NCBI GenBank assembly: GCA_964389015.1
Contig: CAYMCR010000008.1
Location: 312 to 64,311 of the forward strand
Source of the DNA: an uncultured Fibrobacteraceae bacterium
GTDB lineage: Bacteria; Krumholzibacteriota; Krumholzibacteriia; LZORAL124-64-63
Reading direction: 5' to 3'
DNA length: 64,000 nucleotides
The first letter of the stretch is position 1. Each line of letters starts with the position of its first letter. The notes under the pieces are model-generated. The model made no database searches, was not told the origin of the DNA, and worked only from the letters and a program-made list of their open reading frames with translations. A program made the translations under genes and the position numbers. Positions 29,893 to 45,371 of this stretch are shown here, one piece after another.

Positions 29893-31014
29893 TCAGCGAT
29901 AGATACTCTTGACGCTGCCCCAGTCCAGATCGGCGTTGGACATTGGCGCGTCGATCGTGATCGTGACCAGGCTGCAGGAGCCCGAATCGAAGCCGTCCAC
30001 GAAGAGATAGTACCAGCCGTCGGCGGGTATGACCCATTCGGGATCGCCGTCGGGTGGGATGTGCTCGTAGCCATCCCCGATCGTGTCGTCGGAGCCGATC
30101 ACACAGGTACCGGTCGGGTCGATGCAATTGGTCGCCACCCACAGCGAGGCGTCGTGGCTGCCCTGCATCGACACGATGAAGGGATCGCCCTGCAGCAGGT
30201 GGATCTTGTAGACCACGTCCCGGCCCTCGGAGGGATAGCCCGTACAGGCGTTGCCCATTTCGCCGGCGGTGTAGTCGTCGGTGGCCGGGCACAGGTCGAT
30301 CTCGAAGACCGCCAGGCCCTGCTCTCGCAGGTCGATGGCGTTTTCGCAGAGGTTATTGGCCGGGGGCGGCGGCGGTGGCGGCGGATCGTAGCCGGTGCCG
30401 TCGTCGACCATCACGGCGTCCAGGTAGTGGGAGTTGGCGTTGAAGCCCACGTAGCGGAAGGCGATCTCCACGGTCTGACCGTCGTAGAGGGACAAGTCCA
30501 CGAAGTACTTCTCGAACACGTAATGACCGCCGCCGCCGGCAGTCGAATCCCAGTCGAAGACGACAATGCCGTTGATTTCCACGGTCTCGACAGCGTCGTC
30601 GGCCCACTCGGTCTCGCGGTCGCCGGCCATCCAGAAGCTCAGCACGTATTCGTCGCCGGCCACGTCGACCGTCTGCATGAAGGAGATCGATTCGTCCTGG
30701 GAGATCGTTTCGCTCCATCTGATGTAAGCGGCGAAGTCGCCCTCGAGGCTACCACCGTCGATCGCCAGCTGCTGCCAGGTCTCGTCGCTGTTGGTGATGG
30801 CGGCCCAACCGCTCGGAGGCACGGCCACCTCGAAGCCCTCGAAGTAGGCGCGGGGACCGAACGCCGGACCGTGCAGTCGGTTCATCATCCCGAACGTCTG
30901 GCCGTCGGTGCGCTGCTGGTCCTTCGCGACGACCCCCGACGCCGCCAACGCGACCAGCAGTAACACGACCATCCATGATCCTGTCCTCATATCCATCCCT
31001 TTCGCCCGAGACAA
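29893..31014 (-). CDS. secreted protein: N-terminal choice-of-anchor-J-like domain, poly-Pro linker, C-terminal Cys-containing module ending WGSVKSIYR
   Basis: Signal peptide. FEGFEVAVPPSGWAAITNSD resembles the start of the choice-of-anchor J domain. PPPPPPPP linker. The C-terminal ~130 aa is homologous to the C-termini of the 31481..32473 and 44799..45371 products. Confidence 0.65.
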   Translation of the reverse strand: MSRAKGMDMRTGSWMVVLLLVALAASGVVAKDQQRTDGQTFGMMNRLHGPAFGPRAYFEGFEVAVPPSGWAAITNSDETWQQLAIDGGSLEGDFAAYIRWSETISQDESISFMQTVDVAGDEYVLSFWMAGDRETEWADDAVETVEINGIVVFDWDSTAGGGGHYVFEKYFVDLSLYDGQTVEIAFRYVGFNANSHYLDAVMVDDGTGYDPPPPPPPPANNLCENAIDLREQGLAVFEIDLCPATDDYTAGEMGNACTGYPSEGRDVVYKIHLLQGDPFIVSMQGSHDASLWVATNCIDPTGTCVIGSDDTIGDGYEHIPPDGDPEWVIPADGWYYLFVDGFDSGSCSLVTITIDAPMSNADLDWGSVKSIYR

Positions 31015-31416
31015 TCAACGTGACGCGTCGATACACGCGACCCGTCTCCTTGATAACCTGTATCCCATTATTATCGGCATGAGAATTGATAATTTTACAA
31101 GATTCTGCGATTAATAGCCCTGCAAGTGGCTCCCAAAACCGCCTCCGCCAGATATGCCAATATATGACAACATGTTACAAAGAGCCGCCACGTAGCTGGG
31201 CCACCACTTATATTGCACAGTACCGCCCGGATTGTCCATGGCGGCGGAGCCGCCGGGCCGAGCCATCACAACATCCACTGGTCAGGCCAACTATTCAGCT
31301 TACGGTCCCGCCATCAGGGTCCGTAGAGGACTTGCACCTTCAAGTCATCGACCGGACGCCATATCCAGCCGAACGGTGCTTACACACCACGCGCCATGCC
31401 TGGCGCACAAAGAAAG

Positions 31417-31443
31417 AGGCCCCGGAAGAATCCGGGGCCCCTC
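31417..31443 (-). terminator. rho-independent terminator of the 31481..32473 gene
   Basis: Minus-strand gaggggccccggattcttccggggcctc (11-bp GC stem) is followed by tttctttgtg. Confidence 0.6.
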
Positions 31444-31480
31444 GGTTACGACCGGTGGACCGGTCGATCAGGCTTTCAGG

Positions 31481-32473
31481 CTAGCGCCACAGGGCCTTGA
31501 CCTCACCCATGGTCATCGCCTCGTTGGCGATGGCACCATCACCCGATGTGAAATTGAGTTCGTAGGTGCCGCAGCAGTCATCATAGGCGTCGATGACCAG
31601 GTAGAACAGGGCATCCACACCCGTGTCGTTCGTGAACGGCATGTTCTCGAACGTGTCCGGGTACACGGCGTCCATGTAGCCGACGCAGTTGACGGGCTCC
31701 AAGCAGGCGTCCATCACGCGCAGACTGGCGTCGCAAGTGTGAATGACATCAGCCTGGAAGGTCGAGCCGGCGGGCATGAACACGCCGTAGTAGTCTTCCT
31801 GACCGTCGGACAGGTACTGGGTCGGGGTCGGCGGAATGATCACACACGTGCCGGCCGGAGTGTTGTACCCGTCGCAGGTGTCGCCAACGAAGATGCCGGT
31901 GCCGGTAACATCGATGACGTCCGCACAGAAGTCGAACGGGATGTACAGCCACGCACTGAAGCTGGCATCGAAGAAGAAGTCGCCGAAGCCATACTCGCCG
32001 TCGAGCCACATCCAGATCTCGCCATCCCAGCCACCGGTACCGGTCACGGAACCGCCGGAATCCAAGGTGCCCCAGGAAAGGCCCTCAACAAATTCCTCGC
32101 CGCAGCCTGTCGTGGAGTAGAACCAGTCGACATAGCCACCCGCGGGGTGGACCCAGGTGAAGTTCCAATCCCAGCCATCAGCGCTGGCGGGGAACGTGTA
32201 ATGGAAGACGACCTCGCCGCCGGTCCAGATAAAGTAGCTGGCACCAAAGTAGTCATCCACGTTGCCGACCGCCGGCATGTACATGAACGGGTTGCTGTAG
32301 GGATTGGTCAGTTCGGTCAGGCCACTGCAGTCCAGAGCGCCGCGAGAGTTGGACGCCTGGGGATTCTTGATCTCCTTGGTCCCCTTCTGCGCTTCGATCG
32401 TAGCAGCGAAAGCCACTCCGGTCATCATCGCAACAACCGCTACCACGGCCATCAGCTTCATCAAGTTACGCAT
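31481..32473 (-). CDS. secreted protein with the shared C-terminal Cys-containing module (ends MGEVKALWR)
   Basis: Start at MRNLMKLMAVVAVVAMMTGVAFA (signal peptide). The C-terminal block YLVIDAYDDCCGTYEL ... GEVKALWR aligns with YLFVDGFDSGSCSL ... WGSVKSIYR of 29893..31014. The upstream 27 codons of the ORF are unlikely to be translated. Confidence 0.65.
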   Translation of the reverse strand: MRNLMKLMAVVAVVAMMTGVAFAATIEAQKGTKEIKNPQASNSRGALDCSGLTELTNPYSNPFMYMPAVGNVDDYFGASYFIWTGGEVVFHYTFPASADGWDWNFTWVHPAGGYVDWFYSTTGCGEEFVEGLSWGTLDSGGSVTGTGGWDGEIWMWLDGEYGFGDFFFDASFSAWLYIPFDFCADVIDVTGTGIFVGDTCDGYNTPAGTCVIIPPTPTQYLSDGQEDYYGVFMPAGSTFQADVIHTCDASLRVMDACLEPVNCVGYMDAVYPDTFENMPFTNDTGVDALFYLVIDAYDDCCGTYELNFTSGDGAIANEAMTMGEVKALWR

Positions 32474-32767
32474 GAACGTTCCCCCTTGCATGGGTTGGGT
32501 GGAAGTGCGAGCCTCCCCGTCATGGGGAAAACTCTCAGAAACCTTGAGCTCCATGCCCTACCATCAAAAATTTGTGATGGTTTTGGCCTCTTGAGTGCTA
32601 CAACTCTAACATATTTCTGCAACACAATGCAATAGCATAATCCAGAAATGACAGTTTTTTTTGTTCTCATTAGACAGTATTGCAATCAATAAAGTTACGA
32701 TATCGTTGTTGAAGAAGAAAACCAATACGGTGTAAAAGGGTCGTTGATCAGAAATACCCGCGAGTGA

Positions 32768-34633
32768 TCAAAACGTGAGAGCCATGGTCGCCGTGATTAC
32801 CCGACCGGGCATAAGTACGCCGGGAACCTCCTCGTAGGCACGATCGAAGAGGTTGGTGGCGTCTAGGTTGAACCGCCATGCGGCATACGACCAGGTGGCT
32901 CTCAGATCGGCGACCAGGTGTCCGCCACTATCGGCGCGCTCCCGGTATCGCGCCTGGGGCGTCAAGCACAGACGTCGCAGAACGGACACGGTGGCACCGG
33001 CCGACAACAGGTGACGGGGCGCCAGGAAATCGTACTTGGCCACGTGATCGGCGGGCAGGCTGCGATCGCGGCTCAGATAGGTGTGGTTAAGGTAGACGAT
33101 ATTGCCGCGGGGGGTCTCCAGCCGATAGGTCTGGGTCCAGCCCCGAACCTCTCCGGTGGCGATGTTCATGACGCGCCAGGGCTCAGCGACGGCAGCGGTG
33201 GGCCGCGCCCAGTCGATCAGGTCGTGCTCGTAGCGCGTGAAGTACTCCCAGACCACCGTCCAGGGCCCGCGGCGCACTTCGCCGCCCATGTCCCACGACC
33301 AACCGCGTTCCGGCGACAGGGCGGGATCACCCCGGTTGGCGGGATCCTCGTAATGGAGTTCGGTGAAGGTCGGCACGCGGAAGACAGTGCCCGACGAGGC
33401 CCGCAGCAGGACGCCGCCGCCCAGCTCGAGACTCGCGGCCGCCGACCGCGAAAAGGTGGGCTCGAGGATGGACCAGGCGTCCAGCCGGGCGCCCAGGCTC
33501 CAGCGCAGGGGCAGGTGACGACCCGAGACCTCCCATGACGCGGATGCCCGCCGGCGCTCGTGATCGCCCAGGGCCGGTCCCGCCGTTCCCCCGCGGATGC
33601 CGTCGCTGCGGATGTCCTCGTACACGGCCTCGGTTCCGGTGGCCAAGGCGAGACCGTGGCCCAGTTCGACCAGCAGCCGTGTCTCGGCCGCGGCGCGGCG
33701 CGTCACGTGGTCGTTTCGATAGAGGTCGGGATCATCCCTGATAAGAGTGAAGCGGTCGCGATGGCGGCGGCCGCCGAGCCGTTGCTCGAGAACGACTGCA
33801 TCGGAGAGATCGGCGCGCAGCTTGATGCCGGCGAACAGGGTCTGCGTGTGTTCGAACGACGGAAAGGGCGCGTAGAAGTCCAGGGCGCCGAACTCGCGGT
33901 TTGCGTATCCGGCCAGCAGATCCAGCTCGCCCCAACCCGTGCGGCCGGTGGCGTGCGTGGAAGCGTGCCAATGTTCGACGTCGGTGTCGACGCGGTCTCC
34001 GTCGGTGCGGAACCAGCCGCCCGAGAGCCAGGCCCGACCGTCCAGGCCCAGGCCGGTGACGGCGCCGCTCTCCAGCCGGCCGTCGGCGTAACGCGTCCCG
34101 GCGTCGCCGCCCCCGAGCGCGAGCGCGCCGCCCCGGGTCGGGGCCGGAGCGCGGGGCATCACGTTGACCACGCCGCCGAAGGCGTTGGCCCCGTACAGGG
34201 CGGAGCCGTGGCCCCGGAGAACCTCCAGACGCGCCACGTCCGCCAGACCGAGAGGCAGATCGAGGTTGTGGTGGCCGGTCTGGGAATCGCCCACATCCCA
34301 GCCGTCGAGCAGCACCTGCACCTGCTCGAAAGAGGAACCGCGGATACTCAGGTCGGCCTGCGTGCCGTACTGCTGGCGCTGGTTCACCTCGACGGCGGGC
34401 AGGGTGGCGAGCAGTTCCGCGGCCGAGCGGACGGGCGCGGCGGCGGCGGGATCGGCCGCGGCCACTGGACGCAGGAGGCCGGGCAGAGCCGTCGGCACAC
34501 GCGAGCCGAGAACGATCACGGGCTCGGTGAGCCAGACGGTATCGCCGTCGGCGACGACGAAACGTTCGGCCCGGACACCGCCGGCGAAAGCCACGCACGC
34601 CAGCGTCAACAACATGCAAGACGGTCTCATCAT
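32768..34633 (-). CDS. TonB-dependent outer-membrane receptor (small, BtuB-like size)
   Basis: Signal peptide, a plug domain (TLPAVEVNQRQQYGTQADLSIRGSSFEQVQVLLDG), a beta-barrel, and a C-terminal aromatic residue (..MALTF). Confidence 0.88.
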   Translation of the reverse strand: MMRPSCMLLTLACVAFAGGVRAERFVVADGDTVWLTEPVIVLGSRVPTALPGLLRPVAAADPAAAAPVRSAAELLATLPAVEVNQRQQYGTQADLSIRGSSFEQVQVLLDGWDVGDSQTGHHNLDLPLGLADVARLEVLRGHGSALYGANAFGGVVNVMPRAPAPTRGGALALGGGDAGTRYADGRLESGAVTGLGLDGRAWLSGGWFRTDGDRVDTDVEHWHASTHATGRTGWGELDLLAGYANREFGALDFYAPFPSFEHTQTLFAGIKLRADLSDAVVLEQRLGGRRHRDRFTLIRDDPDLYRNDHVTRRAAAETRLLVELGHGLALATGTEAVYEDIRSDGIRGGTAGPALGDHERRRASASWEVSGRHLPLRWSLGARLDAWSILEPTFSRSAAASLELGGGVLLRASSGTVFRVPTFTELHYEDPANRGDPALSPERGWSWDMGGEVRRGPWTVVWEYFTRYEHDLIDWARPTAAVAEPWRVMNIATGEVRGWTQTYRLETPRGNIVYLNHTYLSRDRSLPADHVAKYDFLAPRHLLSAGATVSVLRRLCLTPQARYRERADSGGHLVADLRATWSYAAWRFNLDATNLFDRAYEEVPGVLMPGRVITATMALTF

Positions 34634-34642
34634 CGGACTACC

Positions 34643-36169
34643 TCAATGGGCCGCGGCCTTGCCCTTGGGCTTGGCGTGCCAGACACGGGTGGCCAGGATC
34701 AGCCCCAGGGCCGCCAGCGGCACCATGGCGATGGGCCAGGCCTTCCAGTTAGCCGGATCAGTGGCCGGACCGATGATCTGACCCGCGGCATCCAGCTGCT
34801 CCTTGGGCAGCACGATGGCGTAGGTGAAGGACATCACCCCGGTGCCCAGGTACACGAAGCCGTCGATGATGCCCACGGCGATGCCCGTGTTCTTCGACCC
34901 GCCGAAGTCCATGCTGGCGGTGCCCGACAGCATGCCGTGCACGCCGATCACGGCCATGGACATGATCAGCACCAGCCAGCCCACGTAGGGTTGCTGGTAG
35001 GTGAAGACCAGCATCAGCGAGCCCACCAGCATCGTGCCGTAGAGGAAAGCCGCCACGGGGCCTCGCCGCGACTGGAAGAGATGGTCGCTGATGGTGCCCG
35101 CCACCACGCCGCCCAGGATACCGGCGATGCAGAGCATCAGGCCCCAGTTCTCGTAGACGAAGCTGCTCTTGAGTCCGAGCAGCGTGTCGGTCTGCTTGGC
35201 GAAGGTGCGGAACCACTGCATGATCGCCTGGCGCAGGAAGCCGCTGCAGAACTCGATCAACGCGATGGTGACGATGATGGGGTTGGTCATCATCATCTTG
35301 AAGACCGTGACCGCGCTCTTGCGCGGCCCCTCGTCGCCAGAGGTGGCGTCGGCCGTGTTGAAGTCCTCCTGCCCCGCCTCGCTGGGCTTGTTGCGCACCA
35401 CGAAGAAGTCGATGATCCAGAAGAGCGTCAGCAACAACGCCGGCATCAGGAAGACCCAGGCCAGGCCCATGTCCTGCAGGATCATGTAGCCCAGATCAAA
35501 GGCGAAGTAGATGCCCAATGAGATCAGGATGCCGAAGATGGCCCCGAAGACGCCGCGTTCGCGCACGTGGAACCACGACGAGTTCACCTTGACGATGGCC
35601 ACCGCGCCGAAGCTCTGGAAGTACATGTTCACGGCGTAGAGGATCGAGAAGACCATCACGAAGTTGGTCGCGAGGAAGCCGGAGGCGGGGCCGTCGTGCA
35701 GCAGTGAGAGCGACGCCAGGCCCATCAGGGCGTTGGCGACCGCCGCACCCGCGGCGCCGATCAGGATGGCGAAGCGCCCGCCCAGCTTGTCGGTCAGCGG
35801 CCCGTTGATCAGGAAGGAGAAGCCGTAGACGATGGTGCCCACGCCGAAGATCACACCAAAAGCCTCGTTGCCCATCATGGCGCCGCCGTCGCCGCCGGAT
35901 AGGTTCTCGAAGGCGAACTTGCTCACCTTGAGGTTGTAGCGCCCCATATAAAGGAAGGCGTAGGTGAGCCCCAGGGGCAGCCAGTTCATGACGCGGCGCC
36001 GCTTGAAATCCTTGTCGTGCCCCACTTCGACCGTCGGCAGGCGGTAGAAGACGAAGACCACCACAATCAGCAGCAGCAGCACTGGCGTGAATTTCTCCAG
36101 CCAGTCGGGGGCGATGTCGTAGTAGGTGTCCGAGATGAAGCGCAGGGCATCCATGATGCGGTCGAGCAT
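34643..36169 (-). CDS. MFS transporter
   Basis: 508 aa with 12-14 TM helices and MFS signature loops. Confidence 0.8.
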   Translation of the reverse strand: MLDRIMDALRFISDTYYDIAPDWLEKFTPVLLLLIVVVFVFYRLPTVEVGHDKDFKRRRVMNWLPLGLTYAFLYMGRYNLKVSKFAFENLSGGDGGAMMGNEAFGVIFGVGTIVYGFSFLINGPLTDKLGGRFAILIGAAGAAVANALMGLASLSLLHDGPASGFLATNFVMVFSILYAVNMYFQSFGAVAIVKVNSSWFHVRERGVFGAIFGILISLGIYFAFDLGYMILQDMGLAWVFLMPALLLTLFWIIDFFVVRNKPSEAGQEDFNTADATSGDEGPRKSAVTVFKMMMTNPIIVTIALIEFCSGFLRQAIMQWFRTFAKQTDTLLGLKSSFVYENWGLMLCIAGILGGVVAGTISDHLFQSRRGPVAAFLYGTMLVGSLMLVFTYQQPYVGWLVLIMSMAVIGVHGMLSGTASMDFGGSKNTGIAVGIIDGFVYLGTGVMSFTYAIVLPKEQLDAAGQIIGPATDPANWKAWPIAMVPLAALGLILATRVWHAKPKGKAAAH

Positions 36170-36271
36170 GTCTTCGTTCTCCTGGTCTCCGCCGAAATGA
36201 CGGGGCTGCGTTCAAGATGCGACCGGCTGTTCACGATACGCGTTTCCCGTCTCGCGATCCAGCCGGAATTC

Positions 36272-36916
36272 TCAGCGTATGCCGTGTTCTTCCTTGTAAG
36301 CCGCCCAGTTCTCCTTGAGCTGCTCGAAAGCCTCGAGATCCGGACAGAGCAGGAAGGGATTATGGACGCGTTCGTAGGCCAGGGTCGAGTGCGGCATCTC
36401 CCCCTCGCCGCCGTAATAGTCGTGACCGGGGAGCACCACGCTATCGCCGGACAGCTCGAGGATACGGTGCAGGGACGTCCATTCCGCCGCGGCCGAGGAA
36501 CCGGGGAAGAACGGGCCGGTGCCGCCCACCTTGCCACAGAAGAGCAGGTCCCCGGTGGCCAGGAAGTCCGCGAATAACCAGCAGAGGTGATCCGGCGCGT
36601 GTCCGGGCGTTTCGAGGACGACCAGGTCTTGCGTGCCCAGGCGGCACGATGCCGTGGCGACGGTCGCACCCGTCAGAGCCGCGAGGCGATCGAGGCCGCC
36701 CACGTGGTCCGCGTGACCGTGGGTGATCAGGATGTACTTGAGTTCGAGTCCCGCCTCACGCACGGCGGCGGCCAACTCGTCGGGCCCGTAACCGGGATCC
36801 ACGACCGCCGCCTCGCCGCTGGCGCGGTCGCCGAAGATGTAGCTGAAATTACGGTCTCCCCCCAGCTGCAGCTGCTGCACGATGACGTCGCCGCGCGACA
36901 AGTCGTTGATGATCAT
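36272..36916 (-). CDS. MBL-fold metallo-hydrolase (hydroxyacylglutathione hydrolase-like)
   Basis: Start at MIINDLSRGDV. THGHADHVGG (HxHxDH) motif. The upstream 339 codons of the ORF are a GC artefact overlapping the next gene. Confidence 0.82.
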   Translation of the reverse strand: MIINDLSRGDVIVQQLQLGGDRNFSYIFGDRASGEAAVVDPGYGPDELAAAVREAGLELKYILITHGHADHVGGLDRLAALTGATVATASCRLGTQDLVVLETPGHAPDHLCWLFADFLATGDLLFCGKVGGTGPFFPGSSAAAEWTSLHRILELSGDSVVLPGHDYYGGEGEMPHSTLAYERVHNPFLLCPDLEAFEQLKENWAAYKEEHGIR

Positions 36917-36936
36917 GCCCTGGTCTTCCTCCCGTT

Positions 36937-38022: not shown

Positions 38023-38109
38023 CGTAATCTGCCGCTCTTGCCTGGACGCATCCGGTGGTCTAGTGTTGGCGGGACGAAGATCGCATCCTGCTCAAGATAA
38101 GGACAGATC

Positions 38110-38775: not shown

Positions 38776-38856
38776 ACGGCTTATTATACAGTGGTGGAGC
38801 GGTGGGATAGAGGGCGGTTAGCTTCCCCATTCCCCTGTCGCCCGCAAAGGAAAGCC

Positions 38857-41823
38857 ATGCTGAACGACTTCGACCGCCTGCAGGAACGCATCGGCGAACT
38901 GGGCAACCACCACCGCAAGTTCACCCACTTCATTTCCCTGCACAAGGATCTGCTCACCGAACGTCTCGAGGAATCCGGCGCCATCGACGAGGTCCATTTC
39001 TGGTCCTCGGCCCCTGACATCACCCTGGAGATGGACCTGGTCTGCGAAATGGGCCTCGACGAATCGGAGCAGCTCAATTTTCTCGGCTGTTTTTTCGCTT
39101 TCCAGTTGCTCAATCTGAACGTCCGCGCCGTGGACGTGTTGCGGCTCGGCCTCTCCTCCGGGTCCGACCGTTTCGGCGTCTACCGCGATTTCATGCTGCA
39201 GATGGGCCGTGACCTGCGTCGGTTGACCGGCGCCTACATGTCCAAGCTGCTCAGCCTCTTTCTCGCGGCGGACGAACAGCCCGACTTCGTGATCTGCGGC
39301 GTCGGCACCCGGGCCGACCAGGACGATTTCGATCTCGGCATCATCGACGACGGCAGCGACCGGCGCGACGCCTTCAACCACGCCCTCGGCAGACTGCAGC
39401 GGGAGATGCTGCGCCGCGCCATCCCGCTGCATCTGCACCTTTCCGAGCATGTGGGCGAACAGAGCTTCTCCGCCTCCATCCCCGAATACATCAAGCTGCT
39501 CAAGGGCGAGATCCAGGACTTCATCATCATCACCGAGATGCTCGGCGCCAGGCACATCGTCGGCAGCAAGGACCTGTTCGAGGAGTACACCGCCCAGGTT
39601 ACCGACCGCTATTATTGCGACCCCGAAGGCGACAACCGTTATCACGAGGGCTACCTGCGGGGCATGATGGGTGAGATCCGCGCCCTGTTGCTGCGCAAGC
39701 TCCCCAGCGACAGTCTCCACCCCAAGCGAGACGCCCTGCGCATCATCAAAGGGCTCCTCGCCGCCAAGAAGACCGTGCTCGGCATCAAGGAAGTCAATGC
39801 CTGGCGCATCCTTGAGGAGCTGATGGCCCGGGACCCGGGCAACCTACAGACCTACACCGACCTGGAGGACGCCCTCTCCTTCATCGAGGTTTTCCGCTTC
39901 CTCTATCAGTTGCTGGAGGTGCAGGAAGAGGAGATCCTGCTCAAGGAGGCCGGCTCGCGCGCCCAGCTCGAATCGGTGGCCGACCTGATGGGCTACCGGG
40001 ACACCGGCGTGGTCCGTGGCTACGACCATCTGCTCATTCACTACCACGAGCACGTGCAAACCGTTCGCGCCGCCGCCAGAAAGCTACAGGACGACTTGTT
40101 GCATCACCTCGAGGAGATCAGCGTTTTCTCGAGTTTTCTGCGCGACCGGAACACCAACCTGGCGAGCTGGCGGAAAAAGAAGAACATCGCCACCGAGTTC
40201 GTCATGGCGTTGCGTTTCTTCCGCGGCACCCGGTTCTGGGACGACGTCATGACCCCTATCGAGCAGCACCGTGAGCTGCTGCACGAGTTCGTCGACGACT
40301 TCGAGGTGCTCGCCACGGAAGACCGCCTACAACTGGTACAGCGATACGCCAAGTGGGGCGAGGTCACCAGCCTCGTGGTCCTGCGGTTGCTGGTGCTGCT
40401 GCACCAGCAGCGCAGCTACGAGAACGCCGACGCCCTGTTCAACGATTTGAGCAGCGTCTTCGTCACCCGCATCAGCCAGGTGCCGGACGTGATTTCCCGC
40501 ATGACGGCCGTATTCGAAAACTATCCCAAACTGATGAACGATTTCCTGGCGGGGCTGCACGATGACGACCGCGAACGATTCACGCGGATCTTCGAGGACG
40601 AGGTCTGGAACGAGGAGGTGGAGGAGCTGCGCAAGAATCTACTCTACTTCTGCAAGCTCCACTGCTCGTCCAGCCATTACTTCAAGCGCTTCCTGCAACG
40701 CACCGTCGACAGGTACGCCGAATACGTCCGCCACCTGCACGAACCCGCACGGCTCAAGGTCATCGCCAAGGGGATCTTCGCCCGCGTCGATACCTTCCCC
40801 ACCTTCGCCCGCAAAAAAGAGGAACTGGGGAGCTATTACGATCTGGAATTCCTGCGCATCGGCCTGGAATGCCGGGAGGGCGCGCCCAGCGAGCAGATCA
40901 ACGCCGAATTCACCGAGTTCGTCGACACCTACCTCGAATCGCTCTTCGACATCTGCAAGCAGGAGGTGAGATCACAAGCCGAGATGTGGGTGCGCACACG
41001 TGACCTGCTGGCCATCTATGCCGCCGGCGGCCACGGCCGCAAGCTCGCTTTCGACGACGACTACGATCTGATCATCCTGCTCAATTCCGACGATCCGGAG
41101 ATCCGCAACTACTGCGGCAGGATCCTGACCCGCATGAACAGCGAGATCATCAAGCGCGGCACCATGCCCCAGTACCGCTTCGCGGAGCGCTTCGGCAATT
41201 ACGTCACCACTTTCACGGAGCTGAAGGATCTGTTCGAGGCGCCGGACGAGGTGACCTTTATCGACATGTCCCAGCTCATGGGCGCACGTAAGATCGTCGG
41301 CAGCAAGAAGTTCGAGGTTGAACTCTACCATCGGATCATCCGCCCCCATATCCTCGACCATCAGGACAGTTTCGTGCGCCAGATCGCCGACGAGATTCGG
41401 TCCCGTCACCAGGCGGTGGATCAGGGCGTCATCTCGGCGCTGGATATCAAGGAGACCAAGGGCGGCTTGCGGGATATCGAATTGATGCTGCTGATCCTCA
41501 TGGCCAGGTCCGATCTCTGGCGTCCGGTCACCCAGGAACTGTACACACCCCTGGCGGAGCGCCTACCGCACCGGGCCTACGATCTGGACCAGATGTTCGG
41601 GTCCTTCCGCTACCTGAAGCACGTGCGTGACATATACCGTCTGGCCGTCGCCGCCGAGGACAACCTCCTGCCCGAGGAGCTCGGCTACCTGGCCCATATC
41701 CTTGATTACTGCGAAGATGCCGACTGTGAGAAGGGACGCCAGCAACTGGTCGACGAGTTGCTCGCCCGCACCCAGCAGGTCTCGAACATCGTCTACTCTC
41801 TGCTGGACGAGCTACAGATCTAA
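38857..41823 (+). CDS. GlnE-like bifunctional nucleotidyltransferase (two Pol-beta-type NTase domains)
   Basis: 988 aa. Start at MLNDFDRL after AAGGAAAG. Two NTase signatures: FVICGVGTRADQDDFDLGIIDD and LAIYAAGGHGRKLAFDDDYDLIILL, each followed by a long helical domain. Architecture as in glutamine-synthetase adenylyltransferase. Confidence 0.65.
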   Translation: MLNDFDRLQERIGELGNHHRKFTHFISLHKDLLTERLEESGAIDEVHFWSSAPDITLEMDLVCEMGLDESEQLNFLGCFFAFQLLNLNVRAVDVLRLGLSSGSDRFGVYRDFMLQMGRDLRRLTGAYMSKLLSLFLAADEQPDFVICGVGTRADQDDFDLGIIDDGSDRRDAFNHALGRLQREMLRRAIPLHLHLSEHVGEQSFSASIPEYIKLLKGEIQDFIIITEMLGARHIVGSKDLFEEYTAQVTDRYYCDPEGDNRYHEGYLRGMMGEIRALLLRKLPSDSLHPKRDALRIIKGLLAAKKTVLGIKEVNAWRILEELMARDPGNLQTYTDLEDALSFIEVFRFLYQLLEVQEEEILLKEAGSRAQLESVADLMGYRDTGVVRGYDHLLIHYHEHVQTVRAAARKLQDDLLHHLEEISVFSSFLRDRNTNLASWRKKKNIATEFVMALRFFRGTRFWDDVMTPIEQHRELLHEFVDDFEVLATEDRLQLVQRYAKWGEVTSLVVLRLLVLLHQQRSYENADALFNDLSSVFVTRISQVPDVISRMTAVFENYPKLMNDFLAGLHDDDRERFTRIFEDEVWNEEVEELRKNLLYFCKLHCSSSHYFKRFLQRTVDRYAEYVRHLHEPARLKVIAKGIFARVDTFPTFARKKEELGSYYDLEFLRIGLECREGAPSEQINAEFTEFVDTYLESLFDICKQEVRSQAEMWVRTRDLLAIYAAGGHGRKLAFDDDYDLIILLNSDDPEIRNYCGRILTRMNSEIIKRGTMPQYRFAERFGNYVTTFTELKDLFEAPDEVTFIDMSQLMGARKIVGSKKFEVELYHRIIRPHILDHQDSFVRQIADEIRSRHQAVDQGVISALDIKETKGGLRDIELMLLILMARSDLWRPVTQELYTPLAERLPHRAYDLDQMFGSFRYLKHVRDIYRLAVAAEDNLLPEELGYLAHILDYCEDADCEKGRQQLVDELLARTQQVSNIVYSLLDELQI

Positions 41824-42368
41824 GGTACCAGTTCCTGAGCCGCTTCGACGCCGGCCTTGAAGGCGCTCAGGTTCAGTTCCTCGGTGCCCTTGGGCACCCG
41901 CGCGAGGATGGCCGCTTCGACCGCCTCCCGGGTGACCACCTTGGCCAGCTCGGTAATGACTCCCAAAGCGACGATGTTCGCCACCAGCACCTTGCCCACC
42001 TTCTCGCGGGCGATTTCGATGATGGGGACCCGGTAGACCTTGAAGCCGCCCTCGGGGATTTCGGAACAGGCATCCGCGTCCACGAGCAGGATACCGTCGT
42101 CCTTGAGATCGGCGTGGTACTTGTTCACCGACTCCTGGGTCAGAGCCAGCAGCAGATCGATGTTCACCGCCTTGGGATAGTCGATGTCCTCGTCCGAGAT
42201 GATGACCTCGGAGCGACTGGCGCCGCCGCGCGCCTCGGGACCGTAGGACTGGCTCTGGGTGGCGTTCTTGTCGTCGTAGATGGCTGCCGCCTCGGCAAGC
42301 ACCTTGCCGGCGAGCACGAGCCCCTGGCCGCCCTCACCGCTCAACCGGACCTCGTAGCGGAAACTCAT
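41820..42368 (-). CDS. korG: 2-oxoacid:ferredoxin oxidoreductase, gamma subunit
   Basis: 182 aa. GEGGQGLVLAGKVLAEAA motif of POR/KOR gamma. Confidence 0.85.
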   Translation of the reverse strand: MSFRYEVRLSGEGGQGLVLAGKVLAEAAAIYDDKNATQSQSYGPEARGGASRSEVIISDEDIDYPKAVNIDLLLALTQESVNKYHADLKDDGILLVDADACSEIPEGGFKVYRVPIIEIAREKVGKVLVANIVALGVITELAKVVTREAVEAAILARVPKGTEELNLSAFKAGVEAAQELVP

Positions 42369-43189
42369 GCCGACCCTCCCAGCTTTGCAATGAGCTTTTT
42401 GTACTCAGCCGTGTACTCGGGCTTCTCGATGTCGGTGAGGACGCCGGTGACGATCTTGTCCTCCAGCTCCTCCTTCGTCATCGTGGCCGCCTTCTTCACC
42501 GGCACCGATCTTTCGTGAAGGTCCTCGATCATCTGTACGGGGGTACGCATGCTGTTGCGTCGCCCGAAAACGGTGGGACAGGGAGACATCGCCTCGACCA
42601 CGGACAGGCCTTTCTTGAGCAAGGCCTTCTCGATGTACTTCGAGAGCTGGACCGCCCCGTAGGCCGTGCCGCGCGCCACGAAGGACGCGCCCGCGGCCTC
42701 GGCCAACCCGCTGATGTTGAACGACGCTTCGATGTTGCCGAACGAGGCGGTGCTGGCCCGCTTGCCCACGGGCGTCGTGGGACTGACCTGGCCGCCGGTC
42801 ATGCCGTAGATGGTGTTGTTCAGCAGGACGACCGTCAGATCGATGTTCCGCCGCGCGGCGTGGATGTAGTGGTTGCCGCCGATCGCGGTGGCGTCGCCAT
42901 CGCCGGTGATCACGACCACGTGCAGATCGGGATTGGCCATCTTGACGCCGGTGGCGAACGGGATGGCCCGGCCGTGGGTAGTGTGCAGGGTATTGAAATC
43001 AACGTACCCCGGCATGCGGCTCGAACAGCCGATACCCGAGACCATCACCATGTCGTCCCGGTTCCAGCCCACGCGATCGACAGCCCGCAGGATCGACTTC
43101 ATGACGATGCCGTGCCCGCAGCCCGGGCACCAGATGAGGGGAAACTTCGGGCCCCGCATATAGGGTGTATAATCGAAGCTCTCCATCAC
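42365..43189 (-). CDS. korB: 2-oxoacid:ferredoxin oxidoreductase, beta subunit (TPP-binding)
   Basis: 274 aa. WCPGCGHG ... GIGCSSR ... ITGDGD TPP/[4Fe-4S] motifs. Confidence 0.88.
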   Translation of the reverse strand: MMESFDYTPYMRGPKFPLIWCPGCGHGIVMKSILRAVDRVGWNRDDMVMVSGIGCSSRMPGYVDFNTLHTTHGRAIPFATGVKMANPDLHVVVITGDGDATAIGGNHYIHAARRNIDLTVVLLNNTIYGMTGGQVSPTTPVGKRASTASFGNIEASFNISGLAEAAGASFVARGTAYGAVQLSKYIEKALLKKGLSVVEAMSPCPTVFGRRNSMRTPVQMIEDLHERSVPVKKAATMTKEELEDKIVTGVLTDIEKPEYTAEYKKLIAKLGGSA

Positions 43190-44337
43190 TTCACCGCCTT
43201 CTCGATGGCAGTCAGGATTTCAGGCGGGCTGATCGGTTCACCGTTGATCTTGTTCACCTTGATCACCTCGGCTTGCCCGGCGACCGCCCACTCGACCTCG
43301 TGCGCGAGCTGGCCGAGGTTCATCTCCGGCACGATGATGCATCTGACCTTTTCACCCAAGGCGCGAACTTCCCGGTCGGGGAACGGCCACATGGTGCGTG
43401 GCCGCAGGAAGCATACCTTGAGACCCTTCTCCTGGGCCATCTGCATGGCCCGCTTGGCCGAACGCGCGGTTGAGCCGTAGGCGAAGATGCCGATCTCGGC
43501 GCCATCGTCACCGACCTGCTCCACTTCGATGATCTCGTCGCGGTAACGCTCCAGCTTGCGGTTGAGCCGGAGCATCTGCTTTTCGATCTCCACCGGGTCG
43601 TTGGTGGGGAAACCGGTCTCGTCGTGGCACAGCCCGGTGACATGGAACCGATAGCCGGTACCGAAGGTGGCCATCTCGGGAATGTCGTCGTCGGTGTGCC
43701 GGTATGGGAGGTAATCCTCCGGCGGCACGGTCGGTTTGTGCCGCTCGTAGATCTCCAGTTCAGAGTACTCCGGGATCCGGATCTTCTCGCTGATGTGCCC
43801 CACGGTCTCGTCCAGCAACAGGATGACGGGGATCCGGTACTTCTCGGTGAGGCTGAAGGCGCGCACCGTGAGGTCGATGGTCTCGGCCACGCTCTGCGGA
43901 CAGAGGACGATGATCGGATGGTCGCCGTGAGTTCCCCAGCGCGCCTGCATGACGTCCGACTGCTGGGGCATCGTCGGCAGCCCGGTGCTCGGCCCACCCC
44001 GCATGACGTTGACGATAACGCACGGAACCTCGGTGATGCAGGCGTAGCCGATGTTCTCCTGCTTCAGGGAAAATCCCGGGCCGCTGGTGGCGGTCATGGA
44101 TTTGGATCCCGCCAGGGAGGCGCCGATCACCGCACCCATGGCGGAGATCTCGTCCTCCATCTGGATGAACTTGCCGCCGCCGGCGGGCAGCTTGGTCGAC
44201 AGCTCCTCGGCGATCTCGGAAGACGGCGTGATGGGATAACCGGCGAAGAACTCGAGCCCGGCCGCGAGCGCCGCCTCGGCGCACGCCTCGTTGCCGGTCA
44301 TGACCCGAACTCTGTCATCTCTCTTGGTAACTGGCAT
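43186..44337 (-). CDS. korA: 2-oxoacid:ferredoxin oxidoreductase, alpha subunit
   Basis: 383 aa. TGNEACAEAALAAGLEFFAGYPITPSSEI typical of KorA/PorA. Confidence 0.88.
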   Translation of the reverse strand: MPVTKRDDRVRVMTGNEACAEAALAAGLEFFAGYPITPSSEIAEELSTKLPAGGGKFIQMEDEISAMGAVIGASLAGSKSMTATSGPGFSLKQENIGYACITEVPCVIVNVMRGGPSTGLPTMPQQSDVMQARWGTHGDHPIIVLCPQSVAETIDLTVRAFSLTEKYRIPVILLLDETVGHISEKIRIPEYSELEIYERHKPTVPPEDYLPYRHTDDDIPEMATFGTGYRFHVTGLCHDETGFPTNDPVEIEKQMLRLNRKLERYRDEIIEVEQVGDDGAEIGIFAYGSTARSAKRAMQMAQEKGLKVCFLRPRTMWPFPDREVRALGEKVRCIIVPEMNLGQLAHEVEWAVAGQAEVIKVNKINGEPISPPEILTAIEKAVK

Positions 44338-44358
44338 TGACCAGGATCCTTTCCGCGA

Positions 44359-44565
44359 TCACTTCACGGTGATGGCAAAATCGGGGCAGCGATAGTCGCA
44401 GAGCTGACACCTGTTGCAGGGATCGAGATTGACAACGACCGCGACACCATTCTCGAGCGCCAGTACGTCCTGGGGACAGTATTCGACACAGATGTTGCAG
44501 CCCTTGCACCACACCGTGTTGATCTCGATCACAGGAGGGGCTTCCTGTTCTGTTTTCTTGCTCAC
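44359..44565 (-). CDS. korD: 2-oxoacid:ferredoxin oxidoreductase, delta subunit (2x[4Fe-4S] ferredoxin)
   Basis: 68 aa with two CxxCxxCxxxCP motifs. Confidence 0.85.
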   Translation of the reverse strand: MSKKTEQEAPPVIEINTVWCKGCNICVEYCPQDVLALENGVAVVVNLDPCNRCQLCDYRCPDFAITVK

Positions 44566-44798
44566 TTGGATCTCCTGTCGAAGCCACCTGCCGGTTGCCG
44601 CGCTTCAGCGTGATCCGGGCTCCTCGAAAGCCCGCTGATCTCGCGCAAATATAGTGCCTTGGACTCGATACGAGCAAGAAAGTCGCCTCAATTAGAACGG
44701 GAAATATGGCAGGAAAAATCAGGCGCACAGTTCACTGGGCGCGTACGTCCGGGGAGGCATGATAGTGGACTGAAGAACCGGCTCGCTACTTGTCGCCG

Positions 44799-45371
44799 TC
44801 ACCTGTACAGATTCTTGACCCCGCCCCAGCTCCGGCTCTCCGCCGGCGTGATGCCCAGGGGCGTGATCCGCACCGAACAGCCCGACAGGAACTGAGGGTC
44901 CTCCCCGCAGATCTCCACGGACGACATGGCGGCCGCGCCCATGAAGAACGGTCCCGTCGGCTGGTAGATCCAGGTGAAGGTGAGCGTGGCGATGTGGATG
45001 ATATCCGTCGGGAGGCAGTCCGGGGCGCTGGTGCGCACACCGAGAATCGGATCGCCCTCGTGGACGAGCGAGGCGGAGATCAGATCGGACTCGACCATGT
45101 AGGCTGGCGAACCGCCGCAGCAGCTCTGCAGGACGGCCCAGTCGACGGCTGAGAAGTCCCAGGGCAGGGGTTCGACCGCGCCGGGGCCGGCGAGAATGAC
45201 GTACAGTTCGAAGTCGCTGTCGAAATCGACCTCGGCCTCGCCGAGGTAGGCGTCCGGCGCCGCGGAGAGACCGAGTACGCTGTACTCCCCCTGCGCCGTG
45301 GCGAAACCGGCGTAGAGCGAGAGCGACAGGACGCAGGCGAACACGAGAGCAAGGCTGCGCAGACGAGGCAT
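44799..45371 (-). CDS. small secreted protein carrying the shared C-terminal module (ends WGGVKNLYR)
   Basis: Signal peptide MPRLRSLALVFACVLSLSLYAGFATAQG. Cys-containing. The terminal motif is shared with 29893..31014 and 31481..32473. Confidence 0.6.
   Translation of the reverse strand: MPRLRSLALVFACVLSLSLYAGFATAQGEYSVLGLSAAPDAYLGEAEVDFDSDFELYVILAGPGAVEPLPWDFSAVDWAVLQSCCGGSPAYMVESDLISASLVHEGDPILGVRTSAPDCLPTDIIHIATLTFTWIYQPTGPFFMGAAAMSSVEICGEDPQFLSGCSVRITPLGITPAESRSWGGVKNLYR

What the first reader, a model, noticed from the sequence alone, without database searches (positions are those of the whole stretch)
29893..45371. Three secreted proteins share an undescribed Cys-containing C-terminal module ending (W/M)G-x-V-K-x-(L/I)-(Y/W)-R; one is a choice-of-anchor-J protein
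The products of 29893..31014, 31481..32473 and 44799..45371 all have signal peptides, and all end in WGSVKSIYR, MGEVKALWR or WGGVKNLYR. The preceding ~100 residues are alignable, for example YLFVDGFDSGSCSL with YLVIDAYDDCCGTYEL, tGTCVIG with AGTCVII, and paired cysteines. The N-terminal domains differ. The 29893 protein opens with a choice-of-anchor-J-like domain (FEGFEVAVPPSGWAAITNSD), which by definition is a family found fused to alternative C-terminal sorting or anchoring signals, and it links to the shared module through a PPPPPPPP spacer. None of the three ends in the T9SS tail seen on three other proteins in this same window, nor in a PEP-CTERM, LPXTG or lipobox. The simplest reading is a distinct C-terminal sorting, anchoring or propeptide domain used alongside T9SS in this organism.
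Basis: partly seen in the sequence, partly recalled or inferred. Interest (0 to 1): 0.8.

Follow-up and report, generated by a model that had tools for sequence, protein, structure and literature searches.

The report
Undescribed short C-terminal protein-sorting tag

Summary
The three ORFs, their signal peptides and their endings are real. The motif occurs three times in the six-frame translation of the window, each time directly before a stop (0.00 expected).

The finding merges two things. (1) The ~130-residue Cys-rich region is shared only by proteins A and B. It is a divergent PPC (pre-peptidase C-terminal) domain, which elsewhere is repeated up to 12 times or followed by T9SS tails. It is not a sorting module.

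(2) All three proteins share only a terminal tag, consensus P-[VT]-[PA]-[TV]-E-x-x-[ST]-W-G-x-[VIL]-K-x-[LMI]-[YF]-R-COOH. All 22 homologues of protein C (48–100% identity) keep it.

- Positions that were not searched for are conserved, and codons vary freely.
- The motif lies within 5 residues of the stop in 32 of 33 independent extra matches.
- 84 of 99 carriers have signal-peptide-like N-termini.
- The 87 carriers analysed fall into 59 unrelated passenger families and are small (median 231 aa).
- Paralogues carry T9SS tails instead.

There is no TM helix, no Pfam or NCBIfam model, and no paper.

The best reading is a new, compact C-terminal sorting tag whose reader and destination are unknown.

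The parts
29893..31014 (-). Gene A: signal peptide, choice-of-anchor J domain, poly-Pro linker, PPC-like domain, terminal tag. The longest ORF is 373 aa from TTG 31014. The likely start is ATG 30990; the database form P0207 is 359 aa.
   Evidence: ORF. Starts and RBS. P0207 is 100% identical, and P0208 (84% identity) is named 'choice-of-anchor J domain-containing protein'.
30406..30846 (-). A: choice-of-anchor J domain (residues 57-203 of the 373-aa ORF)
   Evidence: NCBIfam NF038128, 33.5 bits against cut-off 30. AF2 models it as a beta-sandwich. Foldseek matches MAM, CBM and gingipain cleaved-adhesin folds.
30361..30384 (-). A: PPPPPPPP spacer between the two domains
   Evidence: Read from the translation. 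A Pro-rich linker is conserved at this place in the family alignment A4.
29947..30354 (-).
   Evidence: BLASTP against B, E=3e-10. 517 representative proteins at E<=1e-3. Homologues hit PF04151 at the same place. hhalign against the Pfam-positive PPC domain gives probability 96%, E=3.8e-9. AF2 models a beta-sandwich at residues 222-342, pLDDT about 80-90.
29896..29946 (-). A: terminal tag PMSNADLDWGSVKSIYR (core WGSVKSIYR = 29896..29922), followed by stop 29893..29895
   Evidence: AF2 gives pLDDT<50 for residues 346-359 and a short helix at 351-358, detached from the fold.
31481..32473 (-). Gene B (330 aa from ATG 32473; the longest ORF starts at 32554): signal peptide MRNLMKLMAVVAVVAMMTGVAFA, an N-terminal region with no family hit, PPC-like domain, variant tag
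   Evidence: ORF. RBS AGGGGGA lies 7-8 nt upstream of 32473. No Pfam hit at E<=10.
31535..31933 (-). B: divergent PPC-like domain, homologous to that of A
   Evidence: BLASTP A against B, E=3e-10.
31484..31534 (-). B: terminal tag AIANEAMTMGEVKALWR, a variant with M in place of W and W in place of Y; stop at 31481..31483
31403..31443 (-). GC-rich hairpin followed by a T-run downstream of B (intrinsic-terminator-like)
   Evidence: Read from the sequence (gaggggccccgga ttc ttccggggcctc tttctttg). Not tested further.
44799..45371 (-). Gene C (190 aa): signal peptide, cohesin-like beta-sandwich, conserved linker, terminal tag
   Evidence: ORF. Exact product found on 21 metagenome contigs. 22 homologues. 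RBS GGAGGA.
44856..45281 (-). C: cohesin-like beta-sandwich (residues 31-172), unrelated to the A/B module
44802..44852 (-). C: terminal tag ITPAESRSWGGVKNLYR (core 44802..44828); stop at 44799..44801
   Evidence: W, G and K are invariant, and the linker residues P171, G173, T175, P176 and A177 are invariant in 22 homologues at 48-100% identity. AF2 places a short helix at 182-188 after a linker, pLDDT about 67-73.

Best explanation
Two separable elements are present.

(1) A and B share a divergent, Cys-rich PPC beta-sandwich. This is an ordinary passenger domain of exported proteins.

(2) A, B and C share only a compact C-terminal tag: a Pro/Thr/Glu-rich linker followed by [ST]-W-G-x-[VIL]-K-x-[LMI]-[YF]-R at, or within 5 residues of, the C-terminus. 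I read this tag as a lineage-specific protein-sorting (address) signal of Eisenbacteria, Krumholzibacteriota, Latescibacterota and related bacteria.

Proposed mechanism:
- The protein crosses the inner membrane through Sec and loses its signal peptide.
- The small passenger folds in the periplasm, often with disulfides.
- The flexible linker presents the terminal peptide, probably a 2-turn helix, to a dedicated protein receptor that is still unidentified.
- That receptor directs the protein to its final site, most likely the outer membrane or cell surface. This runs in parallel with T9SS, which in the same genomes handles much larger proteins.

Shown: the tag's existence, its conservation, its strict C-terminal position, selection at the protein level, its taxonomic restriction, signal peptides on the carriers, many unrelated passengers, several carriers per genome, and alternation with T9SS tails.

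Inferred: that it is a sorting signal, that a protein reads it, and where the proteins go.
For: Window:
- 3 of 3 motif occurrences abut a stop codon, with 0.00 expected by chance.

Conservation:
- All 22 homologues of C (48-100% identity) end in WGx(V/I)Kx(L/I)(Y/F)(R/H), with at most one extra residue apart from one sequence with nine.
- The A-type family keeps K invariant and R nearly invariant.

Breadth:
- The labelled loci are Eisenbacteria 29, Krumholzibacteri* 11, Latescibacter* 7, 'Fibrobacteraceae' 12 and Gemmatimonadota 1. A further 51 are unclassified, and only 5 are obvious chance hits.

Independent signal:
- Positions that were not searched for are conserved: T/S at -10 in 107 of 117, V/T at -16 in 89 of 117, P/A at -15 in 82 of 117, E at -13 in 51 of 117.
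- A relaxed motif finds 33 extra matches in the same 0.81 Mb. Of these, 32 lie within 5 residues of a stop and the one internal match is in Nocardia.
- Synonymous codons and all three stop codons are used, and the downstream DNA is unrelated. Selection therefore acts on the peptide, not on a DNA repeat.

Sorting-signal hallmarks (the attribute list in Haft's preprint 10.1101/2023.06.07.544157):
- 84 of 99 complete carriers have signal-peptide-like N-termini.
- The passengers fall into 59 BLAST clusters among the 87 analysed.
- Their domains are diverse: LTD, NHL, CHRD, beta-helix, PD40, FG-GAP, PPC, choice_anch_W and choice_anch_J.
- Several carriers occur per MAG, with arrays of up to 6 per 8 kb. 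There are 3 in this 64-kb window and 2 in each 21-kb locus L125 and L126.

Alternation with T9SS:
- The same PPC domain or passenger occurs with T9SS tails instead of the tag, for example P0041, L044, and L023 against L114 and L036.
- No T9SS-tail family is among the families shown for the 87 carriers.
- Carriers have a median length of 231 aa, against 754 aa (stop-to-stop ORFs) for T9SS-like-tail ORFs in the same loci.

Other:
- AF2 places the tag outside the fold as a short helix in both models.
- Cys counts are even in 74% of carriers, which fits an oxidising extracytoplasmic compartment.
Against: - No receptor or processing enzyme was found. The recurrent neighbours are T9SS cargo genes and housekeeping genes, and the synteny of A is not conserved.
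- No experiment, proteomic data or localisation data exist.
- The tag lacks the TM helix and Arg cluster of every characterised small C-terminal sorting signal. Assigning it to that functional class therefore rests on analogy.
- AF2 confidence in the tag is low (pLDDT below 50 to about 70), and the hydrophobic moment does not differ from shuffled sequences.
- The signal-peptide calls are a crude hydropathy heuristic.
- The genome scan was truncated and restricted to one codon pattern, so per-genome counts are extrapolations from ascertained loci.
Confidence: 0.5

Rival explanations
1. The tag is a minimal T9SS signal. It imitates the last beta-strand of the local T9SS C-terminal domains and feeds small proteins into the same translocon.
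For: - All carriers are in FCB-group lineages that have T9SS cargo, and T9SS cargo genes are the commonest neighbours (28 of 118 loci).
- Local T9SS tails also end in a basic residue, then hydrophobic residues, then a terminal R/K, for example RRMVLIR, RKMLLTR and RKLTLAR.
- From my own knowledge, not tested here: the last residues of the P. gingivalis RgpB and HBP35 CTDs are essential for export.
Against: - No hit to TIGR04183, PF18962 or FlgD_ig in A, B or C or among the families shown for the 87 carriers.
- The tag is about 17 residues, against 70-100 residues of folded Ig-like CTD.
- Only 3 of the 118 scan loci come from Bacteroidota genomes (Sediminibacterium, Pedobacter, Ferruginibacter), and all three are chance hits on ORFs of 20 residues or fewer.
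- The invariant W-G and K have no counterpart in CTD motifs.
Confidence: 0.15
2. The tag is a retention anchor rather than an address. Either it is an interfacial amphipathic helix that holds periplasmic proteins on a membrane surface, as in PBP5, or its invariant Lys is cross-linked to peptidoglycan in an Lpp-like manner.
For: - W, Y, K and R are typical membrane-interface residues.
- AF2 predicts a short helix.
- K is the only fully invariant residue in the A-type alignments.
- The ending ...K-x-L-Y-R recalls the ...K-Y-R-K ending of E. coli Lpp (my own knowledge).
- Some carriers have periplasm-type domains such as cupredoxin, NosD-like and PD40.
Against: - The hydrophobic moment is no higher than in shuffled sequences, at 0.46 against 0.36±0.17.
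- Nine residues are very short for a stable membrane anchor.
- Physicochemical anchors rarely conserve exact residues (W, G, K, Y, R) across phyla.
- The terminal residue is Arg, not the Lys used by Lpp.
- A few carriers already have lipoprotein signal peptides.
Confidence: 0.15
3. The tag is a docking peptide, functionally a mini-dockerin. It attaches many small proteins non-covalently to a surface scaffold.
For: - Many diverse small proteins share one short terminal peptide on a flexible linker, which is the logic of cellulosome dockerins.
- Protein C has a cohesin-like fold.
- One carrier has a weak Dockerin_1 hit.
Against: - C itself carries the tag, so it would be cargo rather than scaffold.
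- No scaffold with repeated receptor modules was seen.
- Dockerins are Ca-binding modules of about 70 residues with no similarity to the tag.
Confidence: 0.08
4. One reading: the whole ~130-residue Cys-containing region plus tail is one novel sorting, anchoring or propeptide domain.
For: In A, B and the A-type family the PPC-like domain and the tag are always adjacent.
Against: - C and most of the 87 carriers have the tag without the domain. Passengers fall into 59 clusters, and PPC is found in 1 of 87.
- The domain occurs without the tag, in up to 12 tandem copies and in front of T9SS tails.
- The domain is a PPC homologue.
Confidence: 0.03
5. The tail has no sorting role. It would be a stabilising cap, a protease-recognition or degradation tag, or a lineage-specific relic.
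For: No partner was identified. Extensions of 1-10 residues and degenerate versions exist, such as SWGEIKTFFAEHDKTGRP and TWGQIKLLFSP.
Against: - Strong purifying selection acts on 5-6 residues across several phyla and on dozens of unrelated folds.
- The tail is restricted to exported proteins.
- It alternates with T9SS tails.
Confidence: 0.07

Closest known systems
Small tripartite C-terminal sorting signals (LPXTG/sortase, PEP-CTERM/exosortase, GlyGly-CTERM/rhombosortase, MYXO-CTERM/myxosortase)
   Same: Both lie at the extreme C-terminus of signal-peptide-bearing proteins, occur several times per genome, sit on many unrelated passengers, have nearly invariant signature residues and are restricted to particular lineages. 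Carriers include choice-of-anchor families, which are defined by alternative C-terminal signals.
   Different: The tag has no hydrophobic transmembrane segment and no Arg cluster. It cannot be held in the inner membrane for an intramembrane or membrane-bound transpeptidase. No cognate enzyme was found.
T9SS C-terminal domains (type A TIGR04183/PF18962, FlgD_ig-like)
   Same: Both are C-terminal, found in FCB-group bacteria, lack a membrane segment and sit on Sec-exported proteins. The tag alternates with the CTD on homologous passengers, and both end in a basic residue.
   Different: The tag is about 17 residues on a flexible linker, against a folded beta-sandwich of 70-100 residues. There is no HMM similarity. 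The tag sits on small proteins (median 231 aa against 754 aa). No genuine tag was found in the Bacteroidota genomes among the scan hits.
PPC, bacterial pre-peptidase C-terminal domain (PF04151), including clostridial collagenase collagen-binding domains
   Same: The ~130-residue region shared by A and B is a homologue. Its relatives pass PF04151, hhalign gives E=3.8e-9, the AF2 model is a beta-sandwich, and ColG tandem CBDs are among the fold matches.
   Different: It is a divergent subfamily with five conserved Cys and a conserved NDxCxxAIDL...CTGY...TDC...TCV pattern. A and B themselves do not reach the Pfam threshold.
Braun lipoprotein Lpp C-terminus (…K-Y-R-K, Lys linked to peptidoglycan)
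   Same: Both are short, conserved, basic and aromatic C-terminal peptides with an essential-looking Lys on an exported protein. The comparison rests on my own knowledge of Lpp.
   Different: The terminal residue is Arg and the Lys lies at -5. The carriers are mostly not lipoproteins. No link to L,D-transpeptidases was tested.
Cohesin modules (comparison applies only to the body of protein C)
   Different: There is no sequence-family hit, no dockerin partner was identified, and the organism is Gram-negative-type.

Membership tests
PPC domain (Pfam PF04151), for the A/B 'module' | The sequence itself matches the PF04151 HMM above the gathering score (25.9 bits) | tested here: not met
   No PPC hit for A or B at E<=1, nor at E<=10 for P0207 (the database form of A) and the 330-aa form of B.
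PPC domain (Pfam PF04151), for the A/B 'module' | Homology to bona fide PPC domains, shown through intermediates or profile-profile comparison | tested here: met
   The A module finds P0026 (E=2e-46) and P0141. Their matched regions (166-295 and 175-297) contain PF04151 hits at 213-277 (96.9 bits) and 223-289 (30.5 bits). hhalign of the module profile against the Pfam-positive N-terminal PPC of the same family gives probability 96%, E=3.8e-9 over 95 columns.
PPC domain (Pfam PF04151), for the A/B 'module' | Beta-sandwich fold like the collagenase CBD/PPC | tested here: met
   AF2 models strands over residues 222-342 with pLDDT about 80-90. The ColG tandem CBD 5iku ranks 6th in Foldseek against the PDB, among generic beta-sandwich hits.
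GEVED domain (Pfam PF20009) | HMM match | tested here: not met
   No hit at E<=1 or E<=10 for A, B or C. 'MGEVK' in B is the tag variant, not a GEVED motif.
T9SS type A sorting domain (TIGR04183 / PF18962) | HMM match to a C-terminal Ig-like domain of about 70-100 residues | tested here: not met
   No hit in A, B or C or among the families shown for the 87 carriers. Positive controls in the same window pass: 8835..10481 at 28.4 bits and 56406..58706 at 24.1 bits, cut-off 23.
Tripartite small C-terminal sorting signals (LPXTG, PEP-CTERM, GlyGly-CTERM, MYXO-CTERM classes; attributes as listed in 10.1101/2023.06.07.544157) | [quoted passage not shown] | tested here: met
   3 of 3 in the window abut the stop. 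32 of 33 independent extra matches lie within 5 residues of a stop.
Tripartite small C-terminal sorting signals | [quoted passage not shown] | tested here: met
   3 in this 64-kb contig. Several loci come from the same MAG, for example JAUSBL01 x3, CAZCQM01 x3 and JBDRBC01 x4. Arrays reach 6 per 8 kb. No whole-genome count was possible.
Tripartite small C-terminal sorting signals | [quoted passage not shown] | tested here: met
   W, G and K are invariant in the C family. K is invariant and R nearly invariant in the A-type family. T/S at -10 is present in 107 of 117 without having been searched for.
Tripartite small C-terminal sorting signals | Hydrophobic transmembrane helix after the signature motif | tested here: not met
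   The best 15-residue Kyte-Doolittle window in the last 35 residues averages 0.53, and only 1 of 109 reaches 1.6. Only 0-5 residues follow the motif.
Tripartite small C-terminal sorting signals | Cluster of 2-5 basic residues at the end | tested here: not met
   There is a single terminal Arg plus one Lys four residues upstream.
Tripartite small C-terminal sorting signals | N-terminal signal peptide on most carriers, and carriers otherwise unrelated | tested here: met
   84 of 99 are signal-peptide-like by a crude heuristic. Passengers fall into 59 BLAST clusters among 87, with diverse Pfam domains.
Tripartite small C-terminal sorting signals | Cognate sorting enzyme co-occurring with the signal | not testable with these tools
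   This needs whole-genome phylogenetic profiling. Neighbourhood clustering of the 118 loci found no recurrent candidate.
Choice-of-anchor J (NCBIfam NF038128), for protein A | HMM match above the cut-off | tested here: met
   33.5 bits against cut-off 30, residues 57-203. The orthologue P0024 scores 37.2 bits. NCBI names P0208 accordingly.
Lpp-type peptidoglycan attachment signal | C-terminal Lys as the linked residue | tested here: not met
   The terminal residue is Arg in 116 of 117, and the Lys is at -5.
Outer-membrane-protein beta-signal | C-terminal aromatic residue (usually Phe) ending an amphipathic beta-strand | tested here: not met
   The terminal residue is Arg. The TonB-dependent receptor in the window ends canonically in ...MALTF.
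Cohesin (for the body of protein C) | Cohesin fold / sequence-family match | tested here: inconclusive
   [not shown]

The most novel reading that the evidence does not exclude
The …[ST]WGx[VIL]Kx[LM][YF]R-COOH tail is the address label of a previously unrecognised outer-membrane translocation or surface-attachment pathway in Eisenbacteria, Krumholzibacteriota, Latescibacterota and their relatives. This pathway would be distinct from T9SS and from all sortase/exosortase-type systems, and would serve on the order of a hundred small proteins per genome.
Probability: 0.3. Interest if true: 0.85.

Novelty: new variant of a known kind. Interest (0 to 1): 0.62.

Why it matters
Every well-characterised compact C-terminal sorting signal (LPXTG, PEP-CTERM, GlyGly-CTERM, PGF-CTERM, MYXO-CTERM) uses a membrane-spanning segment. 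The one major Gram-negative signal without such a segment, the T9SS CTD, is a folded domain.

A tag of about 17 residues with no membrane segment, sitting on a large share of the small exported proteins of several uncultured phyla, would point to a different recognition mechanism. It would give a concrete, searchable handle on the secretome and cell-surface biology of lineages known only from metagenomes. Such a handle could be a tail HMM for annotation and phylogenetic profiling, and diagnostic tryptic peptides for metaproteomics.

In practical terms, proteins that now read as 'hypothetical protein' or 'PPC domain-containing protein' could be annotated as members of one sorting class.

Tried and rejected
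- Direct Pfam and NCBIfam scans of A, B and C for the tail or module found only choice_anch_J in A.
- The PDB sequence search with the A module and with a consensus tail found nothing meaningful.
- The word-indexed homologue search with the A tail gave a single fragment. The exhaustive HMMER search was needed.
- Gene-neighbourhood clustering of 1,423 ORFs from the 118 loci was used to look for a sorting enzyme. The recurrent neighbours were T9SS cargo, a Ser/Thr kinase, an aminotransferase, a DD-carboxypeptidase, an amidase, an ECF sigma factor and an Rrf2 regulator, with no candidate.
- In the window, the MFS transporter, the TonB-dependent receptor, B and A are consecutive genes on the same strand, which suggested an operon. 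At about 50% identity the A orthologue instead sits between DUF3857/transglutaminase genes and an AsmA-family gene, so the TBDT link was rejected.
- The idea that a DNA repeat or mobile element supplies a shared 3' end was rejected. Codons are synonymous-variable and downstream DNA is 28% identical.
- The amphipathic helix/strand test by hydrophobic moment was not distinguishable from shuffles.
- The NCBIfam hits to 'ScyF PEP-CTERM protein' are NHL-repeat similarity below the cut-off (207 bits against 350). They are not evidence of a swapped PEP-CTERM.
- Literature searches for motif strings, for choice-of-anchor sorting, for secretion in Eisenbacteria or Latescibacteria, and for cohesin/dockerin found nothing relevant except Haft's criteria paper.
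- The afdb50 fold library was unavailable.

Full report
**1. What is in the window**

Three minus-strand ORFs exist as described:
- A: 29893..31014
- B: 31481..32554, or from 32473
- C: 44799..45371

Their GC3 of 0.80-0.88 is like that of the neighbouring genes. B is followed by a hairpin and T-run, and A by a GC-rich hairpin. Each has a signal-peptide-like N-terminus.

The proteins end in WGSVKSIYR, MGEVKALWR and WGGVKNLYR. The regex G.[VILM]K..[YWF][RK] occurs only three times in the six-frame translation of the window, each time directly before a stop. The corresponding DNA pattern has 3 matches against 0.00 expected in 100 shuffles. Even a much looser motif finds no further carrier in the window.

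The contig is from marine metagenomes (ENA ERZ23498668, JGI 3300009128).

**2. The finding merges two elements**

A and B align over about 155 C-terminal residues (BLASTP E=3e-10, 27% identity). C shares only the last 10 residues with A and has no significant match to B.

**3. The A/B module is a PPC domain**

Pfam and NCBIfam give no direct hit to the module. An exhaustive HMMER search with the 154-residue A tail finds 517 cluster representatives at E<=1e-3.

In many of these the domain is repeated, with up to 12 matched stretches in proteins of 1,000-2,900 aa. In others it precedes T9SS-type tails. P0041, for example, carries PPC plus Por_Secre_tail/FlgD_ig.

Three observations link the module to PPC:
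- In P0026 and P0141 the region matched by the A module contains a PF04151 (PPC) hit above the cut-off, at 96.9 and 30.5 bits.
- In the ~300-aa relatives, the N-terminal domain passes PF04151.
- A profile of the A/B-type module aligns to that N-terminal domain with hhalign probability 96%, E=3.8e-9.

AF2 models A (as P0207, mean pLDDT 79.6) as two beta-sandwiches, choice-of-anchor J and PPC-like, joined by the poly-Pro spacer. Foldseek returns generic sandwich and CBM folds, including the ColG tandem collagen-binding (PPC) domains.

The module is therefore a divergent, five-Cys PPC subfamily. It is a passenger domain, not a sorting device. GEVED is excluded.

**4. The terminal tag is real, conserved and widespread**

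All 22 homologues of C (48-100% identity) end in WGx(V/I)Kx(L/I)(Y/F)(R/H) with 0-1 extra residue, apart from one with nine. W, G and K are invariant, and so is the linker P-x-G-x-T-P-A.

In the A-type family the tail reads P-V-A-x-E-x-x-S-W-G-x-x-K-x-x-Y-R, with K invariant. This family consists of a signal peptide, a variable N-domain, a Pro linker, the PPC-like domain and the tag.

The record titles break down as follows:

| Label | Loci |
|---|---|
| Eisenbacteria | 29 |
| Krumholzibacteri* | 11 |
| Latescibacter* | 7 |
| 'uncultured Fibrobacteraceae' / Fibrobacter | 12 |
| Gemmatimonadota | 1 |
| Unclassified MAGs | 51 |
| Others | 7 |

Of the 7 others, 5 are evident chance hits on tiny ORFs or at internal positions.

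Positions outside the searched pattern are conserved: T/S at -10 in 107 of 117, V/T at -16, P/A at -15, T/V/A at -14, E at -13, and a Cys at -18 to -20 in about 43%.

A relaxed motif finds 33 further matches in the same 0.81 Mb. Nineteen are followed directly by a stop, ten by 1-3 residues, three by 4-5 residues, and one is internal, in the Nocardia chance locus.

Codon usage at the fixed residues is freely synonymous, all three stop codons occur, and the downstream DNA is unrelated (28% identity). The conservation is therefore at the peptide level.

**5. Properties of the carriers**

- Of 99 complete ORFs of at least 100 aa, 84 have a signal-peptide-like N-terminus by a simple hydropathy rule. 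Three or four of these look like lipoproteins.
- Carriers are small, with a median of 231 aa (IQR 210-268). ORFs (stop to stop) with T9SS-like tails in the same loci have a median of 754 aa.
- Cys counts have a median of 4 and are even in 74%.
- After removal of signal peptide and tag, the 87 best-defined carriers fall into 59 BLAST clusters.
- Pfam finds LTD (6 carriers), NHL, CHRD, beta-helix, PD40, FG-GAP, PPC and others, and nothing for most.
- NCBIfam finds choice_anch_W in 2 carriers. It finds no model that covers the tag in more than 3 of 87.
- Tagged genes occur in arrays: 6 in 8 kb in L040, and 4 in L035.
- Density away from the ascertained gene is about 1 per 24 kb (33 in 0.81 Mb). 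This is similar to the window (3 in 64 kb) and to L125 and L126 (2 in 21 kb). It extrapolates, with bias, to the order of 100 per genome.
- Homologous passengers carry T9SS-like tails instead of the tag. Examples are L044 (237 aa, tagged) against its 761-aa neighbour (E=1.6e-32), and L023 against L114 and L036.
- No T9SS-tail family is among the families shown for the 87 carriers.

**6. What it is not**

- There is no transmembrane segment. The best 15-residue hydropathy window in the last 35 residues averages 0.53, and only 1 of 109 reaches 1.6.
- There is no Arg cluster.

The tag therefore fails two of the seven attributes that Haft lists for small tripartite sorting signals, while meeting the other five. 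It cannot work like LPXTG, PEP-CTERM, GlyGly-CTERM or MYXO-CTERM.

It is also not a T9SS CTD, having no HMM hit and being far too short. It is not an OMP beta-signal, because the terminal residue is Arg. It is not an Lpp-type terminal Lys.

**7. Mechanism**

AF2 places the tag outside the globular fold in both models, as a short helix of low to moderate confidence. The hydrophobic moment does not distinguish helix from strand, or either from shuffled sequence.

Exact conservation of W, G, K, Y/F and R across several phyla and dozens of folds argues for recognition by a protein rather than generic membrane affinity. My best-supported reading (about 0.5) is a compact sorting tag. After Sec export it would be read in the periplasm by a lineage-specific receptor, which sends small proteins to the outer membrane or surface in parallel with T9SS.

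The rivals are:
- a minimal T9SS signal (0.15)
- a direct membrane or peptidoglycan retention anchor (0.15)
- a docking peptide (0.08)
- no sorting role (0.07)

No receptor or enzyme candidate emerged from neighbourhood analysis, and the synteny of A is not conserved.

**8. Novelty**

None of the following describes the tag:
- Pfam (2025) or NCBIfam 20.0
- PDB sequences
- the searchable literature

Source annotations read 'hypothetical protein', 'PPC domain-containing protein' or 'choice-of-anchor J domain-containing protein'. I rate it a new variant of a known kind, namely C-terminal sorting tags, with function unproven. The PPC module and the choice-of-anchor J domain are already known.

**9. 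Limits**

- The signal-peptide calls are heuristic.
- The genome scan was truncated and restricted to V at position 4 and Y at position 8.
- Taxon labels are the record titles.
- Per-genome numbers are extrapolations from biased loci.
- AF2 confidence in the tag is low.
- No whole-genome co-occurrence analysis or experiment was possible.

Noticed in passing
[not shown]
   Followed up: partly
Two pass TIGR04183 (28.4 and 24.1 bits, cut-off 23). The third is a 1,315-aa S8 peptidase with a PorU-CTD/FlgD-like tail. All end in ...R(R/K)hhhhR.
   Followed up: yes
window 29893..36169 (-): An MFS transporter, a TonB-dependent receptor (32768..34633), B and A lie head-to-tail on one strand, which suggests an operon. 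The adjacency is not kept for A orthologues at about 50% identity.
   Followed up: yes
L125 10001..14538 and L126 10001..14478: In two distant relatives the A-type gene and a second tagged 217-aa gene flank an AsmA/YhdP-family gene (envelope lipid-transport family). Upstream are two DUF3857/transglutaminase-like genes and an LTD protein with a FlgD_ig tail.
   Followed up: no
L040 (JBJXGV010000065.1, 72001-80000); also L017, L035: Tandem arrays of paralogous tagged genes: 6 intact tags plus 2 paralogues with degenerate or altered tails (TWGQIKLLFSP; EEHDEIKDLYR) within 8 kb. Some have lipoprotein-type signal peptides.
   Followed up: partly
L043 (contig labelled Verrucomicrobiia), L061 (contig labelled Limnocylindria): Genuine-looking tags (…RRSAWGEVKALYR, …GSSWGRVKTLYR) sit on 2-3 kb contigs of MAGs labelled as phyla outside the FCB group. 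The cause could be mis-binning or real spread.
   Followed up: no
L129, L130, L135, L136, L137, L138 (IMG/VR contigs): Six or seven contigs of the viral collection encode proteins ending in the full tag, including the unsearched S/T before W. Examples are …PTEDSTWGQVKSLYR and …VATSTWGAVKAMYR. They could be phages of these lineages, prophages or misclassified contigs.
   Followed up: no
window 31481..31534 (-): B carries an atypical tag, M for the otherwise near-invariant W and W for Y (MGEVKALWR). Its ~180-residue N-terminal region has no family match at all.
   Followed up: no
window 29839..29864: A GC-rich inverted repeat (ggagccccggg ata tcccggggctcc-like) lies between the convergent 3' ends of gene A (-) and the MATE-family gene (28414..29820, +). 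It may be a bidirectional terminator.
   Followed up: no
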